From contig CM000429.1 of assembly GCA_000165345.1 (NCBI GenBank), positions 736,001-800,000 of the forward strand: DNA of 64,000 nt, given 5' to 3'. The position numbers were made by a program. Below, in pieces: positions 1 through 3,221 of the stretch (positions are counted from its first letter, which is position 1; every line of letters begins with the position of its first letter).

Positions 1-3000
1 TATTTCTATTTCTTATAATTTTTTTTTCTTTTTTTTTTTCATATTGTAATTAAAGACTAGTTATTTAGTAATGGGTTTTATGAGAGAGTAAATATATTAA
101 ATTCGACAAAATGATTAGAAGAAGGGATTTCAATGATGATATATATTATTACTATTATTTCGTCTAAATTAGATATATATAGTTACAATGAAATTCTTCA
201 GAGTTTAAATTAAATACTAGAATAGATTTTTTTTTTCTTTATTTTATAAACAGGTTTAAAATGACATTAATATTTAACTTAAGATTGTAATATATTTAAA
301 TATATTTATTAATTATAATAAATATTAATATAAGTTAAATAAAACACATTCCCGCTATCCCGCCCCCACAAATGATACCCTAACCGGGGATCTAATGAAA
401 ATAAATGAATTTTGACTGGGCGGCAAATATTTGGCCGCCTAAAGTTTCGGAAAAAAAAGCATTCAAGGTTTCTGTGGGAAAGGATTTAAAAGAAAAAATG
501 TGGGAAATAATAGAAAATAATGAAAAAAATAGAGAAAAAAAGGAATAGTAGAAAACAATGTCAAATTAGGCTAATTTAATATAATTAAATGAAATAAAAG
601 TAGATAAGGTTACAATTATTATTATTATTATTACGGATTAGAATCATGATGACAAGCATAAAACCCAAAAAAGAGCTCATTTTTACACAAACTCCATACA
701 ATATTTTCAGTAAATCCTCCTGCACGTTGTTTAGATTCAATGGATGAATATGTTGAAACATTTGATTTCTTAGCATTTTGATGTAGATATTCCTTGCATG
801 TAATATTCTTGTCGATAGGATTAGGAATGTTACTACCAAGAGCAATATTTTGATTATTAGAATTGTTTTGATTGTTAGAATTTTTATTAAAATTTTGAAA
901 GAATTCAGGATATTCATTTTGAAGTGGGTGTACAATTTGAAGATGATCAATTGTGGTATTTTGAGAAAGTTGATTAAGTTGCTCATAAAAAGTACCTTCT
1001 TTTTGTACAATTTCAAGAATATCATTTCTTAAAAGAGTTTCTTCTCTAGTTTTTCTATCTAATATAGCAACTTGATTTTCTTTTGAATATTGATTTAAGA
1101 AATCTTGTGTTGATTTCTTTTCTGTATCATTTCCATAAATTAATTTATATATTAAATCTTCACGTTTCTCAAGATAATTATCATAACAAGGAGTATCTTT
1201 AAAATCTTTTCTTGTTTCATTTAATATTGTATATACCTGTTTTCTTGCTTGACTTTCAAATTTTAAAAAATCTGTCTCGCCATATTCAAAATCTGCAATA
1301 TATTTAACAAAACCATGACATACTGGACATATTTGATTACTTCCTCTTAATATACTTGTTGATTTTTTATTATTATTTGCTTTTGTTGAACATTCTGAAC
1401 AAAATTTATGTCCACATGGATCACCATAGTACATTTTGATATCATTCTTATAATATGTACTTGTCATACATAATGGGCAAGAATATTGTTTTTGACCATC
1501 TTTCCAAATATCTTCATTCATCTTAATTTTGCATATTTTTTTTATAATATTTTTAATTATATATATTTTTTCTGATAATTAATAATATCAGCTTCTTTAT
1601 AAATAGCTAAATAATTTAAAATGAATTAATGTTATTATTATTATTTAATAGCAATATGAATGATTAATTAAATTCCAAAATAATTAATTTAAAATCTATT
1701 ATTGTTTTAAATTCAATATCCAATTTCATTCCTTAAGTTAAACAATTTTAATTTTCTTATTCTTATTCTTTCTTTCTCACTTTATTTCTATCTATTTAAT
1801 TACCTCTCTATCAGAAGATCAAAACTTCAAATTAAATTAGTTGTAATTACTATTCCTAATATTCTCCACCTTTTTTCCTTTAAAGAATTATTTTCTATAG
1901 AAAAATAATAAATAAACAAAAAGTTGAAATTTATTATTATTATTATTTTATTTTTTTTCTTTTATTTCCCCATATAATTTCTTTATTTGACATTTATATA
2001 TAAACATTTGGCGGGAAATATGAAAAATTATATTAATATTAAAATATGTAATGAATAGAAAAATATAAAGACGGTATTAAATACTAGTAATAATATTATG
2101 AGTGTGTATCCATCTGAATCACATCATTTGAAAGAATGGGTTTTTGGATCTTTAGATTTATTAAAAACAAAAAAAAATTACATTAATGAGAAAGCAAAAG
2201 AAAATTGGAAGGATATTTTTAGACAAATTTCGAGTGAGAATTTTGAGATTAATGAGTTGTTATTAACATCAAAAGATGAAGAAACTTTAATTTCTTATTA
2301 TGGTAGACAATTGATAGAATTTTGTAATCATAAACAGCTTCCATTTGTTTCAAAATATAATGCATCAATATTATATCATAGATTTTTTACTAATCAAAGT
2401 GTAATGGATTATGATCCTAGAATTATAATATTTACAAGTATATCATTAGCATTAAAATTAGAAGAATTTGGACTTCATTTTACATTAGAGAAACTTTTTG
2501 GAGATGTCCCAGGTTTGAATATACAAGAAGTTTTTAGACATGAATTAACTGTGTGTAATACATTAAAATTTCATTTATATATATTAAATCCAAGAAATAC
2601 ATTAGAAGGTTTAAGACTTTTATATAAAAAGTATTATATAGATATTTTGGTAGTTGATGAGAATTTGGATAATAATGATCATAAGAAAACTGAAAATAAG
2701 AAAAATCAATTAATAAGTTTATTATCAAAAGTTATATTAAAAGCAGAAACATACGTATTAATGATTTTACATACATTGTAAGTTTTTTTTTAAAATTTTT
2801 AATTAATGAAAATTAACTATTTTAAATATTTAGGTGTTTTCTAATATATACTCCTTCACAAATTTCAATTGCACTTTTTGATATTAGTGCTAGAGAACTT
2901 AATTTACCTCATTCTGGGGAATTTTTAAAGAAAGTTCTTAAAGAAATTCACCAAGCTAATAGTTTTCAATTAAATGCTGAAACAAGTCATTCTAGTTTAA

Positions 3001-3221
3001 CAATTATACATTCAGTTCGAGATTTTGTTATGCAAACTTTAGAAAATGATAGAATTGCAAGAGAAAGAGGCTATGAACATGAAGAAATTGAAACTACGCG
3101 AATTCTTGATAAACTAGGTAAATTACAAAGAAGAAGGAATAAGGAAATGAAGAGAAGAAAGAAGAGTTCCTAAATATAATTGATTAATACATTTAAATAT
3201 AAATATAGATATATAATAAAA

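What the first reader, a model, noticed from the sequence alone, without database searches (positions are those of the whole stretch)
631..3173. Head-to-head MAT1 and cyclin H: two of the three CAK/TFIIH kinase-module subunits share a 576-bp bidirectional promoter
MAT1 (minus strand, 631..1521) and cyclin H (plus strand, 2098..3173) are partners in one complex, CDK7-cyclin H-MAT1. Here they are transcribed divergently from a short spacer that carries a TTTGGCGGGAAA E2F-type box 80 bp from the cyclin H ATG. A shared promoter would guarantee stoichiometric co-expression. I am not aware of this arrangement having been described. It may be conserved in related apicomplexans, and it raises the question of where the CDK7 gene sits.
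Basis: partly seen in the sequence, partly recalled or inferred. Interest (0 to 1): 0.55.

Follow-up and report, generated by a model that had tools for sequence, protein, structure and literature searches.

The report
Adjacent MAT1 and cyclin H genes
In Cryptosporidium the genes for two partners of the CDK7 kinase complex, MAT1 and cyclin H, sit head-to-head across a short spacer with an E2F-type box, but this layout is the commonest promoter arrangement in this compact genome and is not kept outside the genus, so it is a tidy but ordinary observation.

Summary
MAT1 lies at 631..1521 (-). A two-exon cyclin H gene lies at 2098..2777 + 2834..3173 (+). They diverge from a 576-bp, 16% GC spacer with TTTGGCGGGAAA 80 nt before the cyclin H ATG. 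Profile searches assign both genes firmly: cyclin H 1e-47 against cyclin C 1e-9, and MAT1 aligned end to end with human MAT1. Both are already annotated in C. parvum chromosome 1 (cgd1_3300, cgd1_3310 "possible cyclin H").

The pair is head-to-head in all six Cryptosporidium species checked, but inside a fully collinear block of about 12 genes. The linkage is absent in Gregarina, Porospora, Eimeria, Besnoitia, Babesia, Vitrella and Plasmodium. The box is exactly the published Cryptosporidium E2F-like "motif 4". In this window 8 of 26 neighbouring gene pairs are head-to-head, and 5 of those 8 spacers carry such a box.

The box sits next to cyclin H in four species, mid-spacer in C. ryanae, and is missing in C. 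muris. A separate conserved footprint lies on the MAT1 side. Published qRT-PCR profiles co-vary (r = 0.88), but levels differ about 400-fold, so stoichiometric expression is not shown. No kinase gene lies in the 64-kb window. Verdict: real, genus-specific, probably co-regulated, low novelty.

The parts
631..1521 (-). MAT1/Tfb3 orthologue (cgd1_3300), 296 aa. It has an N-terminal C3HC4 RING, the MAT1 helical domain and a C-terminal CAK-anchor region (RAGGF...FFGF).
   Evidence: Pfam MAT1 PF06391 scores 39.2 bits against a cut-off of 25, plus RING families. The best PDB matches are Tfb3 and MAT1. An alveolate MAT1 profile aligns to human MAT1 residues 1-307 at E = 4.6e-45. The gene ID comes from primer mapping and Oberstaller Table S2.
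1522..2097 (.). Divergent 576-bp intergenic spacer, 16% GC, holding the promoter(s) of both genes.
   Evidence: Orthologous spacers measure 554 bp (C. ubiquitum), 474 bp (C. canis), 455 bp (C. felis), 900 bp (C. ryanae) and 149 bp (C. muris).
1719..1734 (.). MAT1-side conserved footprint TCCAATTTCATTCCTT (consensus TCAAATTCCATTCCT), about 200 bp from the MAT1 ATG.
   Evidence: 12 of 16 columns are identical in C. parvum, C. ubiquitum and C. canis, against 36% three-way identity over the whole spacer. CAAATTCCATTCC is also present in the C. ryanae spacer, next to its E2F-like box. The motif is not enriched elsewhere in the window.
1962..1994 (.). Cyclin H-side conserved footprints TTTCCCCATATAA and TTCTTTATTTGACATT, immediately upstream of the E2F box.
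   Evidence: 11 of 16 and 14 of 16 columns are identical in three species. The sequence is not a general motif in the window.
2007..2018 (+). E2F/DP-type box TTTGGCGGGAAA, 80 nt before the cyclin H ATG and 486 nt from the MAT1 ATG.
   Evidence: It matches 'Motif 4 TTTGGCGGGAAV' of Oberstaller et al. 2013 (PMC3734150). An E2F-type box is kept 70-91 nt upstream of the cyclin H ATG in C. ubiquitum, C. canis and C. felis; the C. felis version is the variant TTGGCGCCGGCGCCAA.
2098..2777 (+). Cyclin H (cgd1_3310) exon 1, encoding the N-terminal helix and the first cyclin fold.
   Evidence: Pfam Cyclin_N scores 26.5 bits against a cut-off of 23. Human cyclin H is the best PDB match at 3e-16.
2778..2833 (+). 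56-nt intron (GTAAGT...TTTAG), phase 2.
   Evidence: The spliced product equals P0001. The intron position is kept in all Cryptosporidium loci examined (tblastn).
2834..3173 (+). Cyclin H exon 2, encoding the second cyclin fold and a basic C-terminal tail.
   Evidence: The profile alignment covers human cyclin H residues 2-283. Cyclin_C_2 scores 18.9 bits, below its cut-off of 27.

Best explanation
This is an ordinary Cryptosporidium head-to-head gene pair that happens to encode two subunits of the CDK7-cyclin H-MAT1 (CAK/TFIIH kinase) module.

- **Shown:** the identity of both genes; the layout; the presence and positional conservation of the E2F-type box and of two further footprints; restriction of the adjacency to the genus; correlated qRT-PCR time profiles.
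- **Inferred mechanism:** the AT-rich spacer forms one open-chromatin region, as described for more than half of C. parvum regulatory ATAC-seq peaks. An E2F/DP dimer bound at 2007..2018 drives cyclin H from a start site in the last ~80 nt before the ATG. MAT1 starts from its own core promoter near 1522..1730, helped by the conserved TCAAATTCCATTCCT element and probably by the same open region. The two mRNAs therefore rise and fall together without being produced in equal amounts.
- **Origin of the adjacency:** a rearrangement in the Cryptosporidium stem lineage. It has since been carried along by the near-complete collinearity of the genus. There is no evidence here that selection holds this particular pair together.
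For: - **Gene calls.**
- **Synteny inside the genus.** The order FtsH-TBCA-HAD-RING-cyclin H-MAT1-abhydrolase-adaptin_binding-NOL10 is collinear in C. parvum-type assemblies, C. muris, C. ryanae, C. felis, C. ubiquitum and C. canis.
- **No linkage outside the genus.** No cyclin lies within +-8 kb of MAT1 in Besnoitia, Eimeria, Vitrella, Gregarina, Porospora or Babesia. This holds for Pfam hits on the called genes, for tblastn and for a six-frame profile search. In P. falciparum, MAT1 is PFE0610c and Cyc1 is PF3D7_1463700 (PMC1199594, PMC5472185).
- **A generic promoter element.** Motif 4 TTTGGCGGGAAV and motif 3 are the most over-represented upstream motifs genome-wide (PMC3734150). [quoted passage not shown]
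- **Local frequency.** In this window 8 of 26 adjacent pairs are divergent, and 5 of those 8 spacers hold an E2F-like box.
- **Footprints.**
- **Co-variation.** r = 0.88. Each gene is the other's best-correlated partner among 16 genes run on the same plate.
Against: - No transcription start sites, chromatin data or E2F binding data for this spacer were available, so 'one open region, two core promoters' is inference.
- C. muris keeps the pair with a 149-bp spacer and no GC box. C. ryanae has the box mid-spacer. The E2F element is therefore not essential to the arrangement.
- The qRT-PCR comparison rests on 7 time points, noisy replicates and unknown primer efficiencies. About 6% of unrelated same-plate pairs correlate equally well.
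- The published clustering puts the two genes in different clusters.
Confidence: 0.7

Rival explanations
1. The pair is a selected co-regulation unit. One truly shared bidirectional E2F promoter fires both genes from a single regulatory element, and selection keeps the two CAK partners together to balance their dosage.
For: - Two subunits of one complex are immediate neighbours. For two named genes among about 3,900 (own knowledge of the gene count), the a priori chance is roughly 5e-4.
- The spacer is under 1 kb.
- The pairing is retained from C. parvum to C. muris, even with the spacer shrunk to 149 bp.
- The time profiles correlate at r = 0.88, and each gene is the other's best partner on the plate.
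- Divergent conserved pairs are known to be enriched for functionally linked genes (PMC2871058).
Against: - The whole neighbourhood is collinear across the genus, so retention of this pair carries no specific signal.
- The pairing is absent from every outgroup tested, including the gregarine relatives.
- The box is asymmetric: about 80 nt from cyclin H but about 490 nt from MAT1. It is lost in C. muris.
- The roughly 400-fold difference in measured level, and the different expression clusters, argue against stoichiometric output.
With about 3,900 adjacent pairs in the genome, a few same-complex neighbours are expected by chance.
Confidence: 0.2
2. The adjacency is pure coincidence with independent regulation. 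There are two unrelated promoters, and the E2F box serves cyclin H only. The apparent co-variation reflects a shared housekeeping-type profile and plate or normalisation effects.
For: - The box is cyclin H-proximal in four species, and a separate MAT1-side footprint exists.
- A dip at 12 h is seen in many genes of the same data set, for example cgd1_3320, cgd1_3330 and cgd1_3420.
- The two genes sit in different published clusters.
Against: - Each gene is the other's best-correlated partner among 16 same-plate genes.
- In C. muris only 149 bp separate the two ATGs, which leaves little room for fully independent promoters.
- Bidirectional open-chromatin peaks are reported to be the rule in C. 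parvum.
Confidence: 0.1

Closest known systems
[quoted passage not shown]
   Same: - The orientation is head-to-head and the spacer is short.
- The two products work in one complex.
- The mRNA profiles correlate.
   Different: - Those classic pairs are kept across distant, rearranged lineages.
- This pair is confined to one genus with near-complete collinearity, and it is absent from all outgroups tested.
- Sharing of regulatory elements has not been shown.
Cryptosporidium E2F/DP-motif promoters (Oberstaller et al. 2013, motifs 3 and 4; ATAC-seq preprint 10.1101/2025.01.17.633476)
   Same: - The box is an exact instance of motif 4 (TTTGGCGGGAAV).
- It lies in an AT-rich intergenic spacer between divergent genes.
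- It is positionally conserved in close relatives.
   Different: - Nothing distinguishes this instance from the many others. There are 10 E2F-like boxes in this 64-kb window alone, and 9 of them are intergenic.
- Binding by E2F/DP is untested.
Apicomplexan CAK complexes: PfMRK-PfCyc1-PfMAT1 in P. falciparum (PMC5472185) and TgCdk7-TgCyclinH-TgMat1 in T. gondii (PMC5069487)
   Same: - The subunits are orthologous.
- The Cryptosporidium proteins keep the RING, the MAT1 domain and the C-terminal CAK anchor, and both cyclin folds.
   Different: - In P. falciparum the two genes lie on different chromosomes: PFE0610c on chromosome 5 and PF3D7_1463700 on chromosome 14. Reading the chromosome from the ID format is my own knowledge.
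- In the Toxoplasma relative Besnoitia there is no cyclin near MAT1.
- Those lineages lack E2F/DP factors altogether (PMC3734150).

Membership tests
Cyclin H / Ccl1 subfamily | The best match is cyclin H rather than cyclin C, L, T or K. | tested here: met
   Single sequence against PDB: cyclin H 3e-16, Ccl1 2e-8, cyclin L1 8e-3, cyclin C 0.07. Profile of six sequences: cyclin H 1.2e-47, Ccl1 5e-21, cyclin C 1e-9, cyclin L2 2e-5.
Cyclin H / Ccl1 subfamily | Two cyclin folds with the flanking N- and C-terminal helices typical of cyclin H. | tested here: met
   Cyclin_N scores 26.5 bits, above its cut-off of 23. Cyclin_C_2 scores 18.9 bits, below its cut-off of 27. The profile nevertheless aligns positions 2-286 with human cyclin H residues 2-283.
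Cyclin H / Ccl1 subfamily | Binds and activates a CDK7-type kinase together with MAT1. | not testable with these tools
   This needs co-immunoprecipitation or a kinase assay. It has been shown only for the P. falciparum and T. gondii orthologues (PMC5472185, PMC5069487).
MAT1 / Tfb3 | N-terminal C3HC4 RING finger. | tested here: met
   C15, C18, C36, H38, C41, C44, C65 and C68 are nearly invariant in the alveolate alignment. RING Pfam families also hit; zf-C3HC4 scores 22.6 bits against a cut-off of 21.
MAT1 / Tfb3 | MAT1 helical (ARCH-anchor) domain, PF06391. | tested here: met
   39.2 bits against a cut-off of 25, E = 9e-10. PDB matches Tfb3 at 4e-11 and MAT1 at 6e-8.
MAT1 / Tfb3 | C-terminal CAK-anchor segment that contacts cyclin H and CDK7. 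| tested here: met
   The alveolate MAT1 profile aligns through human MAT1 residue 307, including AGGY...AFSGLF. The window sequence there is RAGGFTENIVWSLCKNELFFGF. G269 is nearly invariant.
Bidirectional-promoter gene pair | Head-to-head genes with a spacer under 1 kb. | tested here: met
   The spacer is 576 bp. In other Cryptosporidium species it ranges from 149 to 900 bp.
Bidirectional-promoter gene pair | Shared cis-elements or one nucleosome-free region, with both start sites flanking it. | not testable with these tools
   No start-site or ATAC-seq data were available for this spacer. The sequence shows two separated conserved modules, 1719-1734 and 1962-2018.
Bidirectional-promoter gene pair | Co-expression of the two genes. 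| tested here: inconclusive
   Mauzy 2012 qRT-PCR gives r = 0.88 over 7 time points, within the top 6% of 136 same-plate pairs. Levels differ about 400-fold, and the genes fall in different FCM clusters, 51 and 27.
Bidirectional-promoter gene pair | The pairing is conserved beyond background synteny. | tested here: not met
   Inside the genus the pair is conserved only as part of a collinear block of about 12 genes. It is absent from six outgroup loci and from P. falciparum.
E2F/DP-regulated promoter | A consensus E2F/DP site (TTTSSCGC-type; Cryptosporidium motif 4, TTTGGCGGGAAV). | tested here: met
   TTTGGCGGGAAA at 2007..2018.
E2F/DP-regulated promoter | The site is conserved in orthologous promoters. 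| tested here: inconclusive
   An E2F-type box starts 70-91 nt upstream of the cyclin H ATG in C. parvum, C. ubiquitum, C. canis and C. felis. It is displaced to mid-spacer in C. ryanae and absent in C. muris.
E2F/DP-regulated promoter | Occupancy by E2F/DP in vivo and dependence of transcription on the site. | not testable with these tools
   This needs ChIP or CUT&RUN and promoter mutagenesis.

The most novel reading that the evidence does not exclude
The MAT1-cyclin H pair is a Cryptosporidium-specific, selectively maintained 'divergent operon' for the CAK module. A single E2F/DP site couples cell-cycle entry to production of the TFIIH kinase regulators. The link would be possible only in this genus because it alone among apicomplexans kept E2F/DP.
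Probability: 0.12. Interest if true: 0.4.

Novelty: new member of a known kind. Interest (0 to 1): 0.2.

Why it matters
If the pair really is driven from one E2F-bound region, it would be a compact natural dual promoter for Cryptosporidium transgenesis. It would also be a small example of E2F feeding into the TFIIH kinase module in the only apicomplexan genus that kept E2F. As it stands, the arrangement mainly illustrates the default promoter architecture of a very compact genome. It does not open a new question. A practical by-product is that several public annotations truncate cyclin H to exon 1 and label MAT1 only as 'ring domain protein'; both can be corrected.

Tried and rejected
- **Word-indexed protein searches.** Searches with cyclin H, with MAT1 and with a 37-sequence MAT1 alignment returned no non-Cryptosporidium apicomplexans. 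Outgroups came instead from the exhaustive representative search plus cluster look-ups.
- **Hunting for gene IDs.** Looking through cyclin and ubiquitin papers' supplements failed. The IDs were settled by mapping published qPCR primers and by Oberstaller Table S2.
- **Cyclin C or L reading.** Rejected, with about 38 orders of magnitude of separation.
- **CDK7 inside the window.** Rejected. No HRDxKxxN or GxGxxG kinase motif occurs in any frame, and no Pkinase hit appears among the ORFs scanned.
- **ncRNA in the spacer or window.** No Rfam family reaches its gathering score.
- **Footprints as general motifs.** The two locus-specific footprints are not enriched in the window.
- **lncRNA at the cyclin H/RING 3' ends.** None is listed for cgd1_3300, cgd1_3310 or cgd1_3320 in the supplements of PMC7840661.
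- **Bacterial promoter/terminator scan and structure prediction.** Both were judged irrelevant or unnecessary and were not run.
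Full report
**1. What is there**

The window is AT-rich, at 20-36% GC in 2-kb windows. Its MAT1 protein is encoded exactly on chromosome-1-sized records of Cryptosporidium parvum-type assemblies, CP029780.1 and CP044422.1.

On the minus strand, 631..1521 is a 296-aa ORF. On the plus strand an ATG at 2098 opens a 227-codon ORF. That ORF continues across a 56-nt GTAAGT...TTTAG intron (2778..2833) into 2834..3173. The spliced product is 339 aa and is identical to an NCBI entry called 'cyclin H-like protein'.

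The two start codons are 576 bp apart (1522..2097, 15.8% GC). TTTGGCGGGAAA sits at 2007..2018, 80 nt before the cyclin H ATG. Every coordinate in the finding is correct.

**2. Gene identities**

*MAT1.*
- The 296-aa protein passes Pfam's MAT1 model at 39.2 bits against a cut-off of 25, and has an N-terminal RING.
- Its best solved relatives are yeast Tfb3 and human MAT1.
- The exhaustive search found 261 relatives.
- A profile of 37 sequences, mainly the closest of these, aligns end to end with human MAT1 residues 1-307 at E = 4.6e-45. The alignment includes the C-terminal AGG...F.GLF segment that anchors MAT1 to cyclin H and CDK7.

*Cyclin H.*
- The cyclin passes Cyclin_N.
- As a single sequence it prefers human cyclin H (3e-16) over Ccl1 (2e-8), cyclin L (8e-3) and cyclin C (0.07).
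- As a six-sequence profile the gap widens: cyclin H 1.2e-47 over residues 2-283, Ccl1 5e-21, cyclin C 1e-9, cyclin L2 2e-5.
- The finding's own refutation test, assignment to cyclin C or L, therefore fails to refute.

*Existing annotation.* Both genes are already annotated. Mapping of published qPCR primers and Table S2 of Oberstaller et al. [quoted passage not shown]

**3. Is the arrangement conserved?**

*Inside the genus, yes.* The two genes are head-to-head in every species checked:

| Species | Spacer length |
|---|---|
| C. muris | 149 bp |
| C. ryanae | 900 bp |
| C. felis | 455 bp |
| C. ubiquitum | 554 bp |
| C. canis | 474 bp |

The whole neighbourhood is collinear in these species: FtsH, TBCA, HAD phosphatase, RING protein, cyclin H, MAT1, abhydrolase, adaptin-binding protein, NOL10. 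Retention of this one pair therefore says nothing specific.

*Outside the genus, no.* MAT1 loci with 8-kb flanks were examined in six outgroups:
- Besnoitia besnoiti
- Eimeria magna
- Vitrella brassicaformis
- Gregarina niphandrodes
- Porospora cf. gigantea
- Babesia gibsoni

None contains a gene with a cyclin Pfam hit, a tblastn hit below E = 0.8, or a six-frame profile hit. In P. falciparum, MAT1 is PFE0610c and Cyc1 is PF3D7_1463700 (PMC1199594, PMC5472185). By the ID conventions these lie on chromosomes 5 and 14 (own knowledge). The linkage is a Cryptosporidium-lineage event.

**4. The E2F box**

The box is a real signal. GGCGGGAA occurs 3 times against 0.13 expected, and TTTSGCGSSAA 6 times against 0.04 expected.

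It is also the most ordinary promoter signal of this genome:
- TTTGGCGGGAAV is literally 'Motif 4' of Oberstaller et al. 2013. Their E2F-like motifs 3 and 4 were over-represented upstream of 114 and 47 expression clusters respectively.
- In this window, 8 of 26 neighbouring gene pairs are divergent, with spacers of 420-1976 bp. Five of those eight spacers carry an E2F-like box. Nine of the ten boxes found are intergenic.

**5. Promoter anatomy**

An E2F-type box starts 91 nt upstream of the cyclin H ATG in C. parvum, 72 nt in C. ubiquitum and 70 nt in C. canis. In C. felis the variant TTGGCGCCGGCGCCAA lies 87 to 81 nt upstream. In all four species the box is more than 370 nt from the MAT1 ATG. 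In C. ryanae a TTTGGCGGCAAA box lies mid-spacer. In C. muris there is no GC box at all.

Alignment of the C. parvum, C. ubiquitum and C. canis spacers gives 36% three-way identity overall, with two footprint areas:
- 1962-2018, made of TTTCCCCATATAA, TTCTTTATTTGACATT and the E2F box.
- 1719-1734, TCAAATTCCATTCCT, about 200 bp from the MAT1 ATG. This element also lies directly beside the E2F-like box in C. ryanae.

Neither footprint is a general motif in the window. The anatomy fits a cyclin H-proximal E2F module plus a separate MAT1-side element. It fits a symmetric shared promoter less well.

**6. Expression**

Mauzy et al. 2012 give qRT-PCR values for both genes, with 4 replicates at each of 7 time points.
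- Log-median profiles correlate at r = 0.88 (Spearman 0.79).
- Each gene is the other's best partner among 16 genes run on the same plate, but 6% of all 136 same-plate pairs do as well.
- Measured levels differ by 2.3-2.9 log10, with MAT1 higher.
- Oberstaller's clustering puts the genes in different clusters, 51 and 27, with memberships 0.90 and 0.88.

The transcripts are therefore not anticorrelated and probably co-vary. 'Guaranteed stoichiometric co-expression' is not supported. The caveat is that primer efficiencies are unknown.

**7. CDK7**

No protein-kinase signature occurs in any reading frame of the 64-kb window. None of the larger ORFs scanned is a kinase. The third subunit is encoded elsewhere.

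**8. Comparison with what is known, and novelty**

The closest known kind is the divergent functionally linked gene pair with a bidirectional promoter (PMC2871058). The promoter element is a standard Cryptosporidium E2F box. CAK complexes with these three subunits are experimentally established in P. falciparum and T. gondii (PMC5472185, PMC5069487).

I found no paper in the searched library that remarks on the adjacency. It is a small undescribed fact, but it is visible in any genome browser, and both genes are already annotated. A look-elsewhere correction matters here. With about 3,900 neighbouring pairs in the genome (own knowledge of gene number), a handful of same-complex neighbours is expected by chance.

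**9. Verdict**

I rate it a new member of a known kind, at low interest (0.2).

The most novel reading still open is a selected, E2F-driven 'divergent operon' for the CAK regulators, specific to the one apicomplexan genus that kept E2F. I give it about 12%.

Noticed in passing
window 3174..3451 (between the cyclin H stop and the RING-gene stop): This tail-to-tail intergenic region looks like a promoter. It holds an (AT)n microsatellite (about 3230-3268), two GCATGC AP2-type boxes plus a TGCATG-like third, two ACACGTAAT repeats, and an E2F-like GCGCGGGAAA at about 3424-3436. The TGCATG...TTTTTGCATGC and ACACGTAAT elements recur in C. ubiquitum, and ACACGTAAT recurs in C. canis. This would fit a promoter for a 3'-end antisense lncRNA as described in PMC7840661. 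However, no lncRNA for cgd1_3300, cgd1_3310 or cgd1_3320 is listed in that paper's supplements.
   Followed up: partly
window 2098..3173; L003 8741..9424; L008 4426..5100: Cyclin H is truncated to exon 1 (224-227 aa, no second cyclin fold) in the gene calls of GCA_015245375.1, C. ryanae, the chipmunk genotype and several Logan assemblies. The 56-nt intron was missed. MAT1 is labelled only 'ring domain protein' in C. parvum, C. ubiquitum, C. canis, C. ryanae and C. xiaoi.
   Followed up: yes
window 345..445: A GC-rich cluster lies 190-290 bp downstream of the MAT1 stop: TTCCCGCTATCCCGCCCCC (349-367) and TGGGCGGCAAATATTTGGCCGCCTAAAG (417-444). These are E2F-like half-sites. They lie more than 1.2 kb from the next annotated ATG (cgd1_3290, the abhydrolase, which is outside the window). 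This may be a distant promoter or an unannotated transcript.
   Followed up: no
window 21739..21750: A second E2F-like box (TTTCCCGCCAA) lies in a tail-to-tail region, between the MUS81/ERCC4-type gene (19245..21449 +) and the dihydrouridine synthase gene (22024..23247 -). It is about 290 bp from each stop codon.
   Followed up: no
window 32258..36622: Two thrombospondin-repeat/PAN adhesin genes lie head-to-head: 32258..34354 (-) and 35099..36622 (+). Their 744-bp spacer holds an E2F-like TTTGGCGGCAA. cgd1_3500 and cgd1_3510, which I take to be these two adhesin genes by ID order (not verified by primer mapping), have very different qRT-PCR levels and profiles. If the assignment is right, a divergent spacer with an E2F-like box need not impose equal output.
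   Followed up: partly
window 37437..39107 (-): This is an ApiAP2 transcription-factor gene with an AP2 domain at residues 400-447. It is followed by about 3 kb (39.1-42.4 kb) without an ORF of 130 aa or more. Similar ORF-poor stretches lie at 49.5-52.1, 54.9-57.4 and 58.2-60.0 kb.
   Followed up: no
L007 5852..6000 (C. muris): The MAT1-cyclin H spacer is only 149 bp at 14% GC. It has a long T-run and no E2F-type box. Both genes must be started from a very small region using different signals than in the intestinal species.
   Followed up: partly
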